Source of the DNA: a virus
Taxonomy: Duplodnaviria > Heunggongvirae > Uroviricota > Caudoviricetes
DNA length: 23,946 nt
IMG/VR virus record: IMGVR_UViG_2617270941_000003
Location: 1-23,946 of that record
Strand: one strand, 5' to 3'
Position numbers and translations under genes: made by a program. This document shows, piece after piece, positions 122-22,394 of this stretch. How positions within the stretch are numbered: position 1 is the stretch's first letter; each line of letters begins with the position of its first letter. Under the pieces are notes generated by a model. That model was not told the DNA's origin. It did no database searches and worked only from the letters and a program-made list of their open reading frames with translations.

Positions 122-701
122 AAACTTCAGGTATTACAGGCCACTCAATATCAGGTGCAGTTGATGTATCAACACGGTTCAGCAACACCCGATACTTTTT
201 CCAGGCTTCCAGCAATGAGGTTTCTTCCTCCGTTGCGATTTCCAGATCTACAGCATCCTGAAGTGGCGCAATATGCTCACTGGCTACCTGCATCAGGTTG
301 TTTTTTGTTTCTTCCGCCTCCCGGATCCGGAACAGTTTTTCTGCTTCTGCATCTTTCACCCAGGCTGTGCCGTTCCACTTCTGAAACTCCCCTTCCGGGG
401 ATAACCAGGTGACATTTTCCGGTAATAAGCCGAGTTCAGAAATAAATAACGCGTCGCCGGAAGCCACGTCATAAACCGTTTTACCCCGATGGTCTTCAAC
501 AAGATGCCACGATGCCTCATCACTGTTGAAAACAGCCACGAAGCCTGCCGGAATATCTGGCGGTGCAATATCGGTACTGTTTGCTGGCAGACCTGTATGA
601 GGCGGAATATATGCGTCACCTTCACCAATAAATTCATTAGTTCCGGCCAGCAGATTATAAATTTTTATGGTCCGTGGTTGTTCACTCATTCTGAATGCCA
701 T
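120..701 (-). CDS. tfa: Tail fibre assembly protein (Tfa family chaperone)
   Basis: 193-aa ORF whose translation ([24 protein letters not shown]...) matches the TfaR/TfaQ/TfaE family as I recall it. Its ATG overlaps the upstream tail-fibre stop by one base (TAATG). Confidence 0.85.
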
Positions 702-2125: not shown

Positions 2126-3521
2126 GAATCATAGCTATGCACATTAAACATTTTGCAATGTCATTAAGCACTCCGAATGACGATGCAGTAGCCCCAAAAC
2201 CTAATCCCATATTATTAATACATGCAGCCACTGTTGCAAATGATGTAAGAAAATCATATCCCATACCATTTAACACCAGTATAAAAAACACCGTGAAGAG
2301 AGTATAAAGAAAAAAGAAACTCCATACAGACCTCATTACACGATCTGTAACTATCTTCCCTCCTACATTTACACTCAACAACGCTCTGGGATGAGAAAGC
2401 TGATTTATCTCGTGTTTGCTTTGTTTGAAAAGTATAAGAAATCGAAGTGACTTAATTCCACCACAAGTTGAACCTATACATCCCCCAAAGAAACTTGACA
2501 ACAGCAAAAACACTATCGTGTGCGTGGGCCAACTTGCATAATCCTGCGTAGCTAAACCATTATCAGTGAGCATGGAGCTGGCAAGAAAAAACGAATGAAT
2601 AAAACTTCCATGCAAGTCATACATACCTATATGCCAGACCTGGAAAGAGGTAACAATGATCACCCCTAAGGCTATTAACAGAAAGAAACGAAGTTCAATA
2701 TCTCTGATTAAAGGTTTTATCGTTTTCCTGCTAATAACAATATACCAAAGAGTGAAGTTGAAAGCCGATAGCAGGGAAAAAGAACCAGCCACCAGCTCAA
2801 CCAAATAGTTATTAAAATATCCGATACTCTCGCTATGAGTTGAGAAACCACCAAGCGAAACTGTGGAAATCCCGTGACAAATAGCATCAAACAAAGGCAT
2901 TCCTGCAAGTCTATAACAGACAATACAAGCAATACCTAATAAAGAATAAGTTATCCACAGTGTCCGTGACGTATCGGCCAGGCGGGGAGTGAGTTTGTCA
3001 TCCTTAAATGGCCCCGGCATTTCTGACTGATAAAGCTTTGCACCACCAATACCCAATAATGGCAATACAGCAACCGCCAGAACAATAACTCCTAAACCAC
3101 CTATAAAATTTAACTGTGACCGATAGTACAAATATGCCCGAGGTAATGAACTAACATCATCAATTACAGTTGCTCCTGTTGTTGTTATTCCAGAAACCCC
3201 TTCAAACAGAGCATCAATGAACGTTAAATTAAGTTCTGAGTCAATCCATAAAGGGAATGCACTAATAACAGAAAACAAAATCCAAAACATTACAATTATA
3301 ATAAACCCATCACGGGTACGTAATTGAATGCCAGATTTCTTAGTTGTATACCACGCTCCGCCACCAATGCAAAAAAATATAACGAAAGTTATAAAGAAAA
3401 CGAACAGGCTTTTTTCTTTATAAAACAATGCTACAACCATTGGTGGCAACATTGAAAGACTATAGAGCCAAACCAGGAACCCACACATATGAGTAACAAC
3501 TCTTACATGAGATGTATTCAT
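2064..3521 (-). CDS. trkG: Trk-type potassium uptake membrane protein (TrkG/TrkH family)
   Basis: Multi-pass membrane protein. Starting at the internal Met (MNTSHVRVV...) gives 485 aa, the length I recall for Rac-encoded TrkG, and the sequence reads like TrkG/TrkH throughout. Confidence 0.85.
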
Positions 3522-3658
3522 ATCTAAATATTCTTTCAATTATAACCACCTTGCTGCAATATTATGATTATACTGTATAAAATTTAACTCCTCTTAGATC
3601 TTACTTCACTGTTCCTTATGAAACAATCATCAAAATGAATCATATTGTAGTTAAGATT

Positions 3659-4123
3659 TTACTTTAAACACTGCTCGGTTATGTATTGCTGAGCACCTTC
3701 AAGTTGGGCCTGCATCATTACCAGTCGTTCCCGGAGGGTGAAATAATCCCGTTCAGCGGTGTCTGCCAGTCGGGGGGAGGCTGCATTATCCACGCCGGAG
3801 GCGGTGGTGGCTTCACGCACTGACTGACAGACTGCTTTGATGTGCAACCGACGACGACCAGCGGCAACATCATCACGCAGAGCATCATTTTCAGCTTTCG
3901 CATCAGCTAACTCCTTCGTGTATTTTGCATCGAGCGCAGCAACATCACGCTGACGCATCTGCATGTCAGTAATTGCCGCGTTCGCCAGCTTCAGTTCTCT
4001 GGCATTTTTGTCGCGCTGTTCTTTGTAGGCGATGGCGTTATCACGGTAATGATTAACACCCCATGACAGGCAGACGACGATGCAGATAACCAGAGCGGAG
4101 ATAATCGCGGTTACTCTGCTCAT
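3659..4123 (-). CDS. Rz: Rz i-spanin (inner-membrane lysis protein)
   Basis: 154 aa with an N-terminal TM segment and coiled-coil body, near-identical to lambda Rz as recalled. Its start overlaps the endolysin stop. Confidence 0.85.
3718..3903 (-). CDS. Rz1: Rz1 o-spanin lipoprotein, embedded in Rz in another frame
   Basis: 61-aa ORF wholly inside Rz with a lipobox (LVVVGC) and a proline-rich body ([15 protein letters not shown]), the classic embedded Rz1 architecture. Confidence 0.8.
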
Positions 4124-4596
4124 ACCTCAATCTCTCTGACCGTTCCGCCAGCTTCTTTGAATTTTGCAATCAGACTGTCAGCCTTATGCTCGAACTGACC
4201 ATAACCAGCGCCCGGCAGTGAAGCCCATATATTGCTGCAACGGTCGATAGCCTGACGGATATCACCGCGATCAATCATCGGCAAAGCGCCACGCTCTTTA
4301 ATCTGCTGCAGCGCTACAGCATCCTGACTTTCTGGAGAAAAATCTTTCAGGCCAAGTTGCTTGCGGTAGGCATCCCACCAGCGTGAAAGAAGCTGGTAAC
4401 GTCCAGCGGCTGTTGATTTGAGTTTCGGATTTAGCGTGACAAGTTTGCGGGGGTGATCGGAGTAATCAGTGAACAGTTCGCCACCGACAATAACATCATA
4501 ACCGTGATTTCTGGTTTTCTGCCGTCCGTTATCTGTTCCTTCTGACCATGCCACCATATCAAGGAAAGCTTTACGCTGGGAATTAAGTGTCTGCAT
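4120..4596 (-). CDS. R: Endolysin, lambda R-type lytic transglycosylase
   Basis: 158 aa ([51 protein letters not shown]...), nearly identical to lambda R over its full length as recalled. AAGGAG Shine-Dalgarno 6 nt upstream. Confidence 0.9.
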
Positions 4597-4624
4597 TAAT
4601 TACTCCTTATGGGCACCGAACTTG

Positions 4625-4939
4625 TTACCGATGACCCTCATTGCCGCACCACGAATAGCAAACACCAATCAGCCCCACCCCACCACCAATGGCAACAGAA
4701 AGTGATTTAGGCCATCCGACATACTCAAGCGCGGATGCAAAGGTCAGCGTCAGAGCACCACAAAGCAGAATCTCAAGCGTTTTTCGTTTCCAGCCGCCGC
4801 CACCGCCAAAATAGGCAATGCGCAAACCAGCCATAATAATTGACATAACCACTGCACCCAGCGGCGTATCTCCACGCCACCAACTTTGTAAGAGTTCCAG
4901 TAAGTCAGGCCAGGAATGAGGGGCATTGTGCATTTTCAT
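4625..4939 (-). CDS. S: Putative class I holin with a lambda-S-like dual start (Met-Lys-Met)
   Basis: Small protein with three hydrophobic segments directly upstream of R-Rz-Rz1. The ORF opens at GTG (4948) followed by in-frame ATG-AAA-ATG (4939 and 4933), behind a GGAGGTGA Shine-Dalgarno. The sequence itself does not resemble lambda S and lacks a strongly charged C-terminal tail, so the call rests mainly on position and topology. Confidence 0.6.
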   Translation of the reverse strand: MKMHNAPHSWPDLLELLQSWWRGDTPLGAVVMSIIMAGLRIAYFGGGGGWKRKTLEILLCGALTLTFASALEYVGWPKSLSVAIGGGVGLIGVCYSWCGNEGHR

Positions 4940-5035
4940 AAGCCTCACCTCCGAGAGTTCGGATGGTGCTAAGTGTAAGATTCAGGCTCTCAGGCTTGCT
5001 AACAAGAAGTCGAGGATGTTTCCGGAGCCTAACAA

Positions 5036-8725: not shown

Positions 8726-9420
8726 TAAATATATTGGTTCTACATTGACAGGAGACTTCAACCATAAGAAGTAATCTGAATACTTGAGCAATAAATTTAC
8801 TTAAGATTAATGAGCGCACCTTGCCGGACAAAGATAAACCAAGGTAACACCTTTTTTCTAGCCAGTATGTAATCAATCAGAAAGCCGCTCCATAAGAACA
8901 ACAGCAAGACAATAAATTGCCATTACAGCCGCAATAGCCAGCGCACATTTGAGAACCAGCACGACAACCCCCTGTATTAGACGCACACCAGTCCTGATAA
9001 ATATGAGGCTGTCTCGTCAGTGATTCAATACAACTATTGGGTATAGTTTCTGTGATTTTATTCTGTAGAAATGGAACACAACAACCAGTCACCACCAGCA
9101 CTTCTTTAAATACGCCAAGTCCGACGCAAGCTAACCTTCTAGTCCGCTTTGAGCGAAAAGCGGACAGGAACATTCTGGTTAATAGATATCAATGCTAACA
9201 AAAAAGCTCCCGATGGAGATTTTGAAACCGCTTCCACATAATGAAATAAAAGGATTTATTTCTGATCATGCCCACACATTGACCACGTCGAAGTAAGTAG
9301 CTCCGCTTCGCGGAGTTACTTAAGATAATTTCTATGTAGTTCCATGCTATGATTTAATTTTCAAGTTACAAAATCTAAATCTACAAATGTCCATTTGGGT
9401 GTAAAATTACACAATCCTAT

Positions 9421-11746
<2,326 letters not shown>

Positions 11747-12047
11747 TTTAATTACCTTATATATCCAAACTCTTAATTTTCTCTTTTTTACCATAGGATT
11801 AATCCAAAATAAAGACCTTGTTGACTAAACCCTCATGTACAAAATGCACACTTACTCAAAAGGATCTGGAGGCAATCTCGACCTCCATGATTTAGTTCCT
11901 AGGGATAAGCAGAAATCTAGCACTGGATTAAAATTTAAAAATAATAATCAATAGGTTATAATGGTTTTTATTCGCATCCATGGGATCTGCTGCTGCCCGC
12001 ATGATGTTGGATGCGACGGCGCTGGCACGACCTCACCCGGTGAAACG

Positions 12048-12492
12048 ATGAAACGCGAAAGGGTTGTTCTTCGGGAAGGTGCAGTTGGACTTTCAATCGA
12101 TGACGTTGCAAAAGAGGCTGGCGTCAGTAAGGCAACGGTAATGTACGATCATAAGTCAAAGCAAGATTTGCTCAGCGATCTCATCAGTCGCCTTATGCCA
12201 GTAGAGGAGGAACGTGTTCAGCAAGCGATAGCGGAAAGTAATAATACCCCACATCCCGCACTCTATGGGCGAATTATTTCAGCCAGTAATGCTCTCAGTC
12301 ATACTGAGAGCAGTAGTGCTGGCGGTCAGCGAATCGTTAACTAACGATACGAATATCAGGGACACCATGCGTTCCTGCACAAACAAAGATTTGGATGAGA
12401 TAAAAAGAGGACCAAAACCAGACGTTGCCGTCCTGGTATATTTGGCGTTATCTGGTATCTACTGCCAAGAATTTTTTGATTTTTACAAATGA
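12048..12492 (+). pseudogene. TetR-family transcriptional regulator, apparently frameshifted, divergent from the three-gene operon
   Basis: The first ORF (frame of 11961..12344) carries a TetR-type helix-turn-helix (LSIDDVAKEAGVSKATVMYDHKSKQDLLSDLI) from an internal ATG at 12048. A second overlapping ORF (12265..12492) in a different frame could be the remaining C-terminal domain. Confidence 0.4.
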
Positions 12493-12765
12493 TCTCCTGG
12501 CGAGCGAGATAAAATTATCGAAGGCATTCGCTGTTTGTATGAATCATACCCTTACAAGTCTGAATAAATAATGTCTCCGGGAATGACATTTCATGTGCGA
12601 CTAATTCGCGATATTCCTATACGTAAAGGTCCGCTTTTGGCACAAAGTGGACAACCACGCTAGCTCTACCCTGTGCCACAAAATGTCAATTTGCATCTGA
12701 ACTAATGCACTTTAATCTCGTCACTTCAATAAATACCGAACATCCCCCTGATAAAACGACAATAT

Positions 12766-22018: not shown

Positions 22019-22213
22019 ATGCGGTATGAAAAAGTCAAACCATGTCTATTTTGTGGTTGTCCATCAGTAACGGTGAACGCCATTTCAGGATATTACCGAG
22101 CGAAGTGTAACGGATGCGAATCCCGAACCGGTTATGGTGGAAGTGAAAAAGAAGCACTCGAAAGATGGAATAAACGAACCACTGGAAATAATAATGGAGG
22201 TGTTCATGTATAA
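22019..22213 (+). CDS. ralR: Lar/RalR (restriction alleviation protein and type I toxin DNase)
   Basis: 64 aa from MRYEKVKPCLFCGCPSVTVNAISGYYRAKCNGCESRTGYGGSEKEALERWNKRTTGNNNGGVHV, near-identical to Rac Lar as recalled. Confidence 0.8.
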   Translation: MRYEKVKPCLFCGCPSVTVNAISGYYRAKCNGCESRTGYGGSEKEALERWNKRTTGNNNGGVHV

Positions 22214-22394
22214 AATTACCGCCACTATTGAAAAGGAAGGTGGCACTCCTACTAACTGGACAAGATATTCAAAATCTAAACTAACGAAATCAGAATGCGA
22301 AAAAATGCTCTCAGGTAAAAAAGAAGCAGGCGTTTCCAGAGAGCAGAAAGTAAAACTGATAAATTTTAATTGCGAGAAACTTCAGTCCTCGTGA
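22206..22394 (+). CDS. ydaC: YdaC-like small protein
   Basis: 62 aa from MYKITATIEKEGGTPTNWTRYSK..., with GGAGGTG Shine-Dalgarno. Its start overlaps the lar stop (ATGTATAA). An upstream in-frame ATG at 22194 is also possible. Confidence 0.6.
   Translation: MYKITATIEKEGGTPTNWTRYSKSKLTKSECEKMLSGKKEAGVSREQKVKLINFNCEKLQSS

What the first reader, a model, noticed from the sequence alone, without database searches (positions are those of the whole stretch)
11747..12492. Divergently transcribed TetR-like regulator next to the operon appears frameshifted
A TetR-type helix-turn-helix ORF starts about 300 bp from the operon start on the opposite strand, the classic layout for a local repressor. The reading frame breaks after about 98 codons and resumes in a different frame (12265-12492), suggesting a frameshift pseudogene. 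If this was the operon's repressor, its loss could leave the operon constitutively on. The 300-bp divergent intergenic region includes a consensus TATAAT at about 11957-11962.
Basis: partly seen in the sequence, partly recalled or inferred. Interest (0 to 1): 0.5.

Follow-up and report, generated by a model that had tools for sequence, protein, structure and literature searches.

The report
Decayed TetR gene beside Kongming operon
The frameshift is real, but the TetR-like gene next to this already published anti-phage operon (Kongming) was broken before that frameshift arose and is drifting like a pseudogene, so this is an ordinary gene remnant rather than a newly lost switch.

Summary
A TetR/AcrR-type ORF (12048-12344, 98 codons) lies 302 bp from, and divergent to, an operon on the minus strand. 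Its C-terminal domain continues in another frame, to 12492. The cause is a 2-bp deletion in a (GA)3 run at 12306-12310. None of 80 complete E. coli genomes with this locus has the deletion, but independent assemblies do, so it is probably real.

The operon is Kongming (KomA/KomB/KomC). KomB and KomC are 100% identical to the PDB entries.

The window's TetR gene carries two older lesions, shared by all 80 of those genomes:
- an 8-bp insertion (12041-12048) that cuts off the original start (ATG 11980);
- TGG>TGA at 12490-12492, which removes the last helix.

Full-length 193-aa alleles survive only in Klebsiella. At least eight other independent disruptions exist elsewhere.

Between Escherichia and Providencia the gene evolves at dN/dS of about 1, against 0.07-0.3 for komABC. 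Its GC content is 46.5%, against 33-37% for the kom genes. The cassette lacks the operator motif found upstream of three distant homologues. Sixteen more distant KomA loci have no TetR gene.

The best reading is a decaying passenger or former regulator in a 3.5-kb mobile Kongming cassette inside a Rac-type prophage. The frameshift probably changes nothing. Interest is low.

The parts
9142..12653 (.). About 3.5-kb mobile cassette: KomC-KomB-KomA, a 233-bp intergenic region and the TetR gene or remnant. It has the same end points in unrelated genomic contexts.
   Evidence: Homology at 95-99% identity (lowest over the TetR part in Providencia) starts at 9142-9152 and ends at 12644-12653 in P. sneebia L011, P. 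rettgeri L012, E. bugandensis L013 and Klebsiella L041/44/45. The ENA contig L004 ends its match at 12652. In Citrobacter L017 the match is cut at 12028.
9421..10215 (-). komC, the SIR2-type NADase effector of Kongming. The ORF is intact.
   Evidence: Pfam SIR2_2 at 1.5e-26. 264/264 residues identical to PDB 8zsf KomC.
10215..10769 (-). komB, the HAM1-like dITP sensor of Kongming. The ORF is intact.
   Evidence: Pfam Ham1p_like at 2e-39. 184/184 residues identical to PDB 8zsg KomB.
10766..11746 (-). komA, an adenosine deaminase (326-aa form starting MDLYEAR). The ORF is intact.
   Evidence: Pfam A_deaminase at 2.2e-46. His15 and His17, named as catalytic in the Kongming paper, fall at those positions only in the 326-aa numbering. 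More distant KomA proteins align from residues 6-10.
11747..11979 (.). Divergent intergenic region, 31% GC. The kom-proximal 180 bp are nearly invariant across hosts. The part next to the TetR gene varies.
   Evidence: Alignment of six hosts. GC values. No CGAACG/CGTTCG-type operator is present.
11867..11887 (.). Palindrome TGGAGG-N9-CCTCCA. On the minus strand it is followed by a T-rich stretch. It could be an operator or a weak terminator-like hairpin; its function is unknown.
   Evidence: It is conserved in 4 of 6 hosts, with single changes in L011 and L017. The fold is -11.7 kcal/mol, z = -2.0, and 8 of 200 shuffles fold as well.
11934..11962 (+). Sigma-70-like promoter match for the TetR gene: TTTAAA, 17 nt, TATAAT.
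   Evidence: 10 of 12 positions; not enriched over shuffles. The -10 element is TACAAT in Providencia and TATGAT in E. bugandensis, and the -35 region carries a 6-bp indel.
11980..12051 (+). Original 5' end of the TetR gene, now a stranded 23-codon ORF (MGSAAARMMLDATALARPHPVKR*).
   Evidence: It is identical to residues 1-23 of the full-length 192/193-aa alleles P0003 and P0028. Its TGA (12049-12051) overlaps ATG 12048 as ATGA.
12041..12048 (+). Lesion 1: an 8-bp insertion (TGAAACGA, an imperfect tandem copy of TGAAACG). It shifts the frame and creates the ATG used by the 98-codon ORF.
   Evidence: Absent from the intact allele on L004. Present in L001 and L002, and inferred for all 80 E. coli genomes with the locus from their match lengths and identities. 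Also present in E. bugandensis with two substitutions. Providencia has an insertion of about 200 bp at the same TGAAAC site.
12048..12344 (+). It encodes the second half of helix 1, the helix-turn-helix and helices 4-5, followed by 11 out-of-frame residues and a TAA.
   Evidence: The product is on record as WP_248841508.1.
12306..12310 (+). It is specific to this lineage.
   Evidence: It is absent from all 80 complete E. coli genomes with the locus and present in independent assemblies.
12307..12492 (+). The C-terminal (ligand-binding and dimerisation) domain in the ancestral frame, up to the premature TGA. The mechanical ORF 12265-12492 lies in this frame.
   Evidence: TetR_C_28 at E=2.5e-4. 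It is contiguous with the N-terminal part in the 177-aa alleles.
12490..12492 (+). Lesion 3: TGA where full-length alleles have TGG (Trp). Providencia and one E. coli allele have a Cys codon here.
   Evidence: It removes the helix at residues 171-187 of the AF2 model (block pLDDT about 96) and drops the TetR_C_28 score from 33.8 to 21.7 bits.
12493..12567 (+). Untranslated remnant of the last 24 codons (SPGERDKIIEGIRCLYESYPYKSE*).
   Evidence: It matches the C-terminus of P0003, P0028 and P0005.

Best explanation
The feature is the eroded remnant of a TetR/AcrR-family gene (TetR_N plus TetR_C_28). It forms the right end of a roughly 3.5-kb mobile cassette (window 9142-12653). The rest of the cassette is the published anti-phage system Kongming (komA-komB-komC), here lodged in a Rac-type prophage.

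The window's copy has three lesions.
1. An old 8-bp insertion at 12041-12048 detaches the native start (ATG 11980) and the first half of helix 1.
2. An old TGG>TGA change at 12490-12492 deletes the last helix. By analogy with solved TetR proteins that helix probably belongs to the dimer interface.
3. A younger, lineage-specific 2-bp deletion at 12306-12310 removes the whole C-terminal domain from the product.

Shown here: the three lesions, their distribution among genomes, the relaxed constraint on the gene, the GC mismatch with the kom genes, and the absence of the operator motif shared by the three distant homologues examined.

Inferred: the E. coli allele was already non-functional before the 2-bp deletion. 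On that reading the frameshift has no regulatory effect. komABC is transcribed from its own conserved upstream region. It is kept harmless by its mechanism rather than by a repressor: KomBC is activated only by dITP, which needs a phage dNMP kinase (bioRxiv 10.1101/2024.12.20.629578).

The TetR gene was either a regulator that became dispensable or a gene of foreign origin captured when the cassette formed.
For: - Identity of the operon: KomB and KomC are 100% identical to PDB 8zsg and 8zsf. KomA is an adenosine deaminase.
- Lesions: the alignment of the window, a 177-aa E. coli allele and the intact allele on L004 shows all three (translations).
- Distribution: 80 of 5,426 complete E. coli genomes carry the locus at 99.2% identity or more. 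Their match lengths and identities fit lesions 1 and 3 without lesion 2, and this was checked base by base in L001 and L002.
- Other disruptions: IS3 insertion (L003); a 1-bp deletion in an A5 run (P0002/P0007); three in-frame stops (L013); an insertion of about 200 bp, plus an 11-bp deletion and an early stop in P. sneebia (L011/L012); frameshifts in the Klebsiella 115/86-aa and 142/202-aa alleles; deletion beyond 12028 together with ATG>ATA in Citrobacter.
- Constraint: dN/dS is 1.15-1.41 (window vs Providencia) and 1.02 (window vs L004), against 0.08-0.22 for komA/B/C in the window-Providencia pairs. Fisher p = 2e-4 and 7e-4. Variable sites by codon position are 15/17/13 against 16/12/46, chi-square p = 0.0015.
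- Family comparison: almost all of the 150 listed homologues align from query residue 23-28 onward, and a 10-aa insertion (ALARPHPVKR) inside helix 1 is unique to the Kongming-linked clade. TetR_N matches only profile positions 11-45 even in the 193-aa allele.
- Operator: palindromes with a CGAACG/CGTTCG core lie within about 60 nt upstream of P0011, P0012 and P0083. None lies anywhere in the cassette, in the window or in Klebsiella.
- Composition: TetR is 46.5% GC, the kom genes 33-37% and the intergenic region 31%, with a sharp step at about 11975.
- Linkage: no TetR-like ORF lies within 3.5 kb of KomA in 16 more distant loci, 13 of which hold all three kom genes on the fetched DNA. Positive controls were detected.
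- Literature: the Kongming papers do not mention TetR.
Against: - The TetR gene travels with komABC in every close copy of the cassette, always divergent, and full-length alleles persist in Klebsiella on about 140 contigs. That layout is what a local regulator would show.
- Lesion 1 may be tolerated. It creates an ATGA stop-start overlap preceded by GGTGA. The product that re-initiates there keeps everything AF2 models with confidence, since residues 1-20 have pLDDT of about 59. A 173-aa allele carrying only this lesion is common in K. pneumoniae (146 contigs).
- RefSeq annotates the 177/148-aa allele as a normal CDS.
- The dN/dS estimates rest on 9-26 substitutions per pair, and the pairs are not independent. 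Comparisons with E. bugandensis give 0.34-0.5, which is not significant.
- The operator consensus comes from only three distant homologues.
- Nothing here measures expression.
Confidence: 0.72

Rival explanations
1. Recent loss of a working repressor. The E. coli 148-aa protein, translated from ATG 12048, still represses komABC. The 2-bp deletion in this lineage abolishes it and derepresses Kongming.
For: The arrangement is divergent and the TetR gene is strictly linked to komABC in close cassette copies. The ATGA overlap with an upstream GGTGA would allow re-initiation. AF2 is confident from residue 21 onward. RefSeq treats the allele as intact.
Against: Every E. coli allele also lacks the last helix because of TGG>TGA, and TetR_C_28 falls below its cut-off. 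The gene evolves neutrally. No family-type operator is present. Other E. coli lineages have broken it again with an IS3 insertion and a 1-bp deletion.
Confidence: 0.1
2. Repeated adaptive loss. The ancestral 193-aa protein does repress Kongming, and phage pressure has repeatedly selected null alleles that give constitutive immunity. This would parallel repressor loss in efflux regulons such as acrR, ramR and mexR.
For: At least ten distinct disruptive events across Escherichia, Klebsiella, Enterobacter, Providencia and Citrobacter, while komABC stays intact and constrained. Broken alleles far outnumber intact ones by contig count.
Against: Neutral decay of a useless gene produces the same pattern. 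The Klebsiella cassette with the intact gene also lacks a family-type operator. More distant Kongming loci have no such regulator. The GC mismatch suggests a separate origin. Even the 'intact' allele has an aberrant helix 1.
Confidence: 0.13
3. Sequencing or assembly artefact. The 2-bp deletion is not in the real genome.
For: None of the 80 complete E. coli genomes with the locus shows it. Short repeats are prone to indel errors.
Against: The same allele appears in three NCBI contigs and in Logan assemblies of two runs. One of these (ERR13731125) differs from the window by a SNP and therefore comes from another strain. A three-unit dinucleotide repeat is not a typical error site.
Confidence: 0.03

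Closest known systems
Kongming anti-phage system (KomA adenosine deaminase, KomB HAM1-like, KomC SIR2 NADase) from E. coli NCTC13216; bioRxiv 10.1101/2024.12.20.629578; PDB 8zsf/8zsg/8zsh
   Same: The operon next to the finding is this system. It has the same gene order, KomB and KomC are 100% identical to the PDB chains, and KomA has His15/His17 at the published positions.
   Different: The papers describe a three-gene operon and do not mention the divergent TetR gene or remnant. The 3.5-kb cassette with a fourth (pseudo)gene is not described in those papers.
TetR/AcrR-family repressors with a TetR_C_28 C-terminal domain (Pfam PF00440 + PF17937). The closest relatives are P0083 (50% identity), P0011 (55%) and P0012 (46%), which sit next to RND or MFS efflux genes.
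   Same: The HTH and recognition helix are nearly identical (SIDAVAKEAGVSKATVMYDHKSK against SIDAVAQEAGVSKSTVVYDHKSK). The nine-helix fold is predicted at pLDDT 90, and Foldseek matches CgmR, RcdA and MexL at TM of about 0.65-0.7.
   Different: The Kongming-linked clade has a 10-aa insertion inside helix 1 and a different N-terminus. It lacks the CGAACG/CGTTCG palindromes found upstream of those relatives and sits next to a defence operon instead of an efflux pump. The window's copy is broken three times.
Dedicated transcriptional regulators of defence systems (WYL-type BrxR and CapW; CapH/CapP for CBASS): PMC9122589, bioRxiv 10.1101/2022.04.27.489752
   Same: A small DNA-binding protein is encoded next to a defence operon.
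   Different: Those regulators belong to other families, are described as associated with many homologous systems, and have shown repressor activity. The TetR gene here is confined to one young enterobacterial cassette, is mostly broken, and has no demonstrated or predicted operator.

Membership tests
TetR/AcrR family transcriptional regulator | N-terminal helix-turn-helix domain matching Pfam TetR_N above the gathering score | tested here: met
   31.3 bits against a cut-off of 24 for the 127-aa ORF. Only profile positions 11-45 match, so the first half of helix 1 is not recognised, even in the 193-aa allele.
TetR/AcrR family transcriptional regulator | All-helical C-terminal ligand-binding and dimerisation domain, contiguous with the HTH in one ORF | tested here: not met
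   In the window the domain is in another frame because of the 2-bp deletion, and it is truncated by TGA. TetR_C_28 scores 21.8 bits, below the 26.4 cut-off. The feature is met only in the Klebsiella 193-aa allele, at 33.8 bits.
TetR/AcrR family transcriptional regulator | TetR fold (about nine helices) | tested here: met
   This holds for the intact allele P0003 only. AF2 gives pLDDT 90.2 with ten helices. The best PDB matches are all TetR-family repressors.
TetR/AcrR family transcriptional regulator | Palindromic operator in its own or its target's promoter region | tested here: not met
   The motif shared by three distant homologues (CGAACG/CGTTCG core) is absent from the 233-bp intergenic region and from the whole cassette. 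The best matches are no better than in shuffles. The TGGAGG-N9-CCTCCA palindrome remains an untested candidate.
Functional local repressor of the adjacent operon (divergent regulator-target pair) | Divergent orientation with a short shared control region | tested here: met
   233 bp separate the KomA ATG (11746) from the ancestral TetR ATG (11980).
Functional local repressor of the adjacent operon (divergent regulator-target pair) | Regulator and target co-occur across homologous loci | tested here: not met
   Linkage holds only in the 95-99% identical enterobacterial cassette. Sixteen more distant KomA loci have no TetR-like ORF within 3.5 kb.
Functional local repressor of the adjacent operon (divergent regulator-target pair) | Purifying selection on the regulator | tested here: not met
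   dN/dS is about 1, codon-position usage is uniform, and there are many independent null alleles.
Functional local repressor of the adjacent operon (divergent regulator-target pair) | Binding to and repression of the operon promoter | not testable with these tools
   This needs EMSA, reporter fusions or RT-qPCR.
Kongming defence system (the neighbouring operon) | komA (adenosine deaminase), komB (HAM1-like) and komC (SIR2) in one operon | tested here: met
   Pfam hits. The ORFs overlap. KomB and KomC are 100% identical to the PDB Kongming chains.
Kongming defence system (the neighbouring operon) | Anti-phage activity triggered by a phage dNMP kinase through dITP | not testable with these tools
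   Taken from bioRxiv 10.1101/2024.12.20.629578 and PMC13454610 for identical KomB and KomC proteins.

The most novel reading that the evidence does not exclude
The ancestral, still intact 193-aa allele (Klebsiella) is a genuine ligand-responsive TetR-type repressor of Kongming with an unusual split helix 1 and a non-canonical operator, perhaps TGGAGG-N9-CCTCCA. Its repeated independent destruction in E. coli, Enterobacter, Providencia, Citrobacter and K. pneumoniae would then reflect selection for constitutive immunity. The window's 2-bp deletion would be one more hit on an already disabled gene.
Probability: 0.13. Interest if true: 0.5.

Novelty: new member of a known kind. Interest (0 to 1): 0.2.

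Why it matters
The practical value is mainly for annotation.

- RefSeq lists the 177-, 148- and 98-aa products as ordinary TetR/AcrR regulators, although they are fragments of a 193-aa gene.
- The operon beside them is the published Kongming system, carried on a compact 3.5-kb cassette that moves between prophages, integrase islands and chromosomal defence islands.
- Anyone studying Kongming regulation should not take the E. coli TetR remnant for its repressor. The Klebsiella 193-aa allele is the one to test.
- If that allele does regulate komABC, it would be, as far as the papers searched here show, an undescribed case of a TetR-type regulator of a nucleotide-signalling defence system. The many null alleles would then be a natural experiment on the cost and benefit of constitutive immunity.
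- On present evidence the frameshift itself has no consequence.

Tried and rejected
1. I scanned GTDB species representatives for relatives of the intact TetR (P0003). 284 pattern matches came back and none was confirmed. I switched to exact-protein look-ups and a KomA-based scan.
2. I searched for a family-type operator: CGTTCGGATAT with up to 2 mismatches and CGAACGNNCGTTCG with up to 3, then 6-mer and best-match scans against shuffles. Nothing exceeded chance. The one near-match at 11761-11771 (AGTTTGGATAT, just upstream of the komA ribosome-binding site) is one of 8 window hits against 5.4 expected.
3. I tested two inverted repeats as RNA structures. TGGAGG-N9-CCTCCA gave z = -2.0. The 9-bp arms TCGCATCCA/TGGATGCGA around ATG 11980 gave z = -0.9. 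Neither is convincing.
4. I could not locate a sigma-70 promoter for komABC. The scan found no candidate on the minus strand in the intergenic region, and my manual candidates were weak, so I assign none.
5. PADLOC has no model that hits the TetR protein. Rfam finds nothing in the focal region, only IS009 and RalA elsewhere.
6. I considered that the 8-bp insertion is a transposon footprint, because Providencia has an insertion of about 200 bp at the same TGAAAC site. No terminal inverted repeats were found, only the microhomology GAA..TGCAGTTG. This is left unresolved.
7. I first assumed the 8-bp insertion must be inactivating. I softened this after AF2 gave low confidence for residues 1-20 and after I noticed the ATGA restart.
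8. A literature search for TetR regulators of defence systems found nothing relevant to Kongming.
Full report
**Observation**

The plus strand holds a 98-codon ORF at 12048-12344, or 127 codons from ATG 11961. Its HTH segment (LSIDDVAKEAGVSKATVMYDHKSKQDLL) matches Pfam TetR_N at 31.3 bits against a cut-off of 24. A second ORF at 12265-12492, in another frame, weakly matches the TetR C-terminal family TetR_C_28 (E=2.5e-4).

The neighbouring operon runs on the minus strand and starts at 11746, 302 bp away. TATAAT is at 11957-11962 with TTTAAA 17 nt upstream. In this AT-rich DNA, promoter-like matches are no more frequent than in shuffled sequence.

**What breaks the frame**

Of 5,426 complete E. 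coli genomes, 81 match this gene and 80 carry the whole locus at 99.2% identity or more. In every one of those 80 the 601-base query spans 603 bases.

Alignment shows a single difference. ACTGAGAGAGCAG in the other genomes is ACTGAGAGCAG in the window, a 2-bp deletion in a (GA)3 run at 12306-12310. In those genomes the two ORFs are one CDS of 177 aa, or 148 aa from the second ATG. RefSeq annotates it as a TetR/AcrR regulator.

The deletion allele is not unique to the window. Its exact 98-aa and 127-aa products are on record from three NCBI contigs (KDX75824.1 / WP_248841508.1, GCA_000704125.1) and from Logan assemblies of SRR1186719 and ERR13731125. Two of those loci are 100% identical to the window over 3.3 kb and the third differs by one SNP. 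The frameshift is therefore real and heritable, though rare.

**What the operon is**

The three minus-strand genes encode an adenosine deaminase (10766-11746), a HAM1-like protein (10215-10769) and a SIR2-like protein (9421-10215). The last two are 184/184 and 264/264 identical to the PDB chains named KomB and KomC (8zsg, 8zsf).

This is the Kongming defence system. In it KomA and a phage dNMP kinase generate dITP, which activates the KomBC NADase (bioRxiv 10.1101/2024.12.20.629578; PMC13454610). His15 and His17 of KomA, cited there as catalytic, fit the 326-aa start at 11746.

The surroundings identify a Rac-type prophage. The best-matching E. coli genomes annotate racR, ydaS/T/U/V, recE, trkG and intR over the matching stretch, and Rfam finds the RalA sRNA in the window itself.

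Homologues show that the true full length is 192-193 aa: MGSAAARMMLDATALARPHPVKRERVVLREG...FYKWSPVERDKIIEGIRCLYESYPDKSE (P0003, P0028). An ENA contig that is 97.9% identical to the window carries this intact form divergent from komA (L004).

Against it, the window and the aligned 177-aa E. coli allele show two further lesions.
- An 8-bp insertion at 12041-12048 turns TGAAACG into TGAAACGATGAAACG. It strands the native start as a 23-codon ORF (11980-12051). It also creates an ATGA stop-start overlap from which the 98-codon ORF begins.
- TGG>TGA at 12490-12492 leaves the last 24 codons untranslated (12493-12567).

An AF2 model of the intact protein (pLDDT 90.2) places a confident helix at residues 171-187, and this is the part removed by the TGA. 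Residues 1-20 are modelled at only about 59.

The 8-bp insertion alone might therefore be tolerated. A 173-aa allele carrying only that lesion is common in K. pneumoniae. Loss of the terminal helix is probably disabling, by inference from solved TetR dimers; this was not tested here. The 2-bp deletion certainly removes the whole C-terminal domain from the product.

**The gene is decaying everywhere**

The TetR gene and komABC travel as one block of about 3.5 kb (window 9142/9146 to 12644-12653) in quite different places:
- the E. coli Rac prophage;
- a lambdoid prophage of Enterobacter bugandensis;
- integrase islands in Providencia rettgeri and a Citrobacter species;
- a locus next to an RHS gene in P. 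sneebia;
- a chromosomal island with AbiH in Klebsiella.

Only the Klebsiella copies (about 140 contigs) and L004 keep the full ORF. Elsewhere the disruptions are:
- three in-frame stops plus the 8-bp insertion (E. bugandensis);
- an insertion of about 200 bp at the same TGAAAC site (both Providencia), with an additional 11-bp deletion and early stop in P. sneebia;
- an IS3 insertion (E. coli A134_1EC);
- a 1-bp deletion in an A5 run (P0002/P0007);
- two different Klebsiella frameshifts (115/86-aa and 142/202-aa products);
- deletion of everything beyond window 12028, together with ATG>ATA (Citrobacter).

**Selection**

Nei-Gojobori estimates for the TetR region give dN/dS of 1.15 and 1.41 (window vs the two Providencia copies) and 1.02 (window vs L004). 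For komA, komB and komC in the window-Providencia pairs the values are 0.08-0.22. Fisher tests on the pooled counts give p = 2e-4 and 7e-4.

Variable sites fall 15/17/13 on codon positions 1/2/3 in TetR, against 16/12/46 in komABC (chi-square p = 0.0015). The site density is about three times higher in TetR.

There are caveats. The counts are small and the pairs share branches. Comparisons with E. bugandensis give 0.34-0.5 and are not significant.

**Was it ever the Kongming repressor?**

Four observations argue against a conserved regulatory partnership.

1. Sixteen more distant KomA loci have no TetR-like ORF within 3.5 kb, by tblastn and by an HMM built from 76 family members. Thirteen of them hold all three kom genes on the fetched DNA (Pseudomonas, Halomonas, Salinicola, a Planctomycete, Citrobacter amalonaticus and others). 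Five positive controls scored E of 1e-28 or better.

2. The closest intact relatives sit next to RND or MFS efflux genes, or an IS and a Usp gene (P0011 55%, P0083 50%, P0012 46% identity). Each has palindromes with a CGAACG/CGTTCG core within about 60 nt of its start, for example ATCGAACGTCCGTTCGGAT, ATACGATCGTTCGGATAT and TTCCGAACGTTCG. Their recognition helix is almost the same as here. Even so, neither hexamer occurs anywhere in the cassette, in the window or in the Klebsiella copy with the intact gene.

3. The TetR ORF is 46.5% GC, against 33-37% for the kom genes and 31% for the intergenic region, with a sharp step at about 11975.

4. Among the homologues aligned, the family N-terminus is MGRPRxIDxxxILDAAERVV. 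The Kongming-linked clade instead reads MGSAAARMMLDAT-ALARPHPVKR-ERVV, with a 10-aa proline-containing insertion inside helix 1 that no other aligned sequence has. Pfam TetR_N matches only from profile position 11.

Together these suggest a gene of different origin joined to the cassette at or near its own 5' end. On the other side, the strict linkage and divergent layout in the close cassette copies, and the survival of full-length alleles in Klebsiella, keep a former regulatory role possible.

**Intergenic region**

The 180 bp next to komA are almost invariant in six hosts. The TetR-proximal part drifts: TATAAT becomes TACAAT or TATGAT, and the -35 region has a 6-bp indel. A conserved palindrome TGGAGG-N9-CCTCCA (11867-11887) is the only operator-like candidate. 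As an RNA hairpin it is marginal (z = -2.0).

**Verdict**

The inference of a recently lost repressor is not supported, because the 2-bp deletion is the third hit on a gene that shows no constraint. Kongming's safety in uninfected cells is explained in the literature by its need for a phage kinase, not by transcriptional repression. The Kongming papers do not mention TetR.

This is a known defence system with an ordinary decaying neighbour. The residual interest is whether the Klebsiella 193-aa allele regulates Kongming and whether its repeated loss is adaptive.

Noticed in passing
window 9142-12653; L011, L012, L013, L017, L041-L045: Kongming plus the TetR gene behaves as a discrete 3.5-kb module. 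It has the same end points in a Rac prophage, a lambdoid prophage, integrase islands, a locus next to an RHS gene and a Klebsiella AbiH island. I did not look for the recombination sites or repeats at the module ends.
   Followed up: partly
L012 5849-6050 and L011 (same region); window 12041-12048: The TGAAAC site in the TetR 5' region is hit repeatedly. E. coli and Enterobacter have an 8-bp insertion there. Providencia has an insertion of about 200 bp that includes a 39-aa Ogr/Delta-like ORF on the opposite strand, flanked by the microhomology GAA..TGCAGTTG. It is unclear whether this is one event followed by partial deletion or a true hotspot.
   Followed up: partly
L003 (E. coli A134_1EC), locus 1-960 and 3848-5010: In this strain the cassette is hit twice by insertion sequences. 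An IS2-family element truncates komC and an IS3-family element interrupts the TetR remnant.
   Followed up: no
L043 (Klebsiella, GCA_027257135.1) 2452-4236: There is an extra SIR2 ORF, a 109-aa Ham1 fragment and a 231-aa SIR2 ORF next to the normal komB. This looks like a partial tandem duplication or rearrangement of komB-komC.
   Followed up: no
protein P0079 (E. coli, MDA7242898.1 / WP_271330278.1): A 270-aa annotated 'TetR family' protein fuses about 100 residues of KomA sequence to the frame upstream of the TetR ORF. This implies an inversion or rearrangement in that contig.
   Followed up: no
window 11972-11980 and 12008-12016: A perfect 9-bp inverted repeat (TCGCATCCA / TGGATGCGA) brackets the ancestral TetR start codon. 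As RNA it is no more stable than shuffles (z = -0.9).
   Followed up: yes
window 22212-22390 (-) and 160-358 (-): Rfam finds the RalA antitoxin sRNA of the Rac RalR/RalA toxin-antitoxin pair (225 bits) and the IS009 RNA family (229 bits). RalA and the racR, ydaS-V, recE, trkG and intR genes annotated in matching E. coli genomes identify the window as a Rac-type prophage.
   Followed up: no
window 10766-11794 (-): RefSeq genomes annotate KomA either as 326 aa (ATG 11746, with AAGG a few bases upstream) or as 342 aa (ATG 11794, no Shine-Dalgarno). The published residue numbering and the more distant homologues support the 326-aa start.
   Followed up: yes
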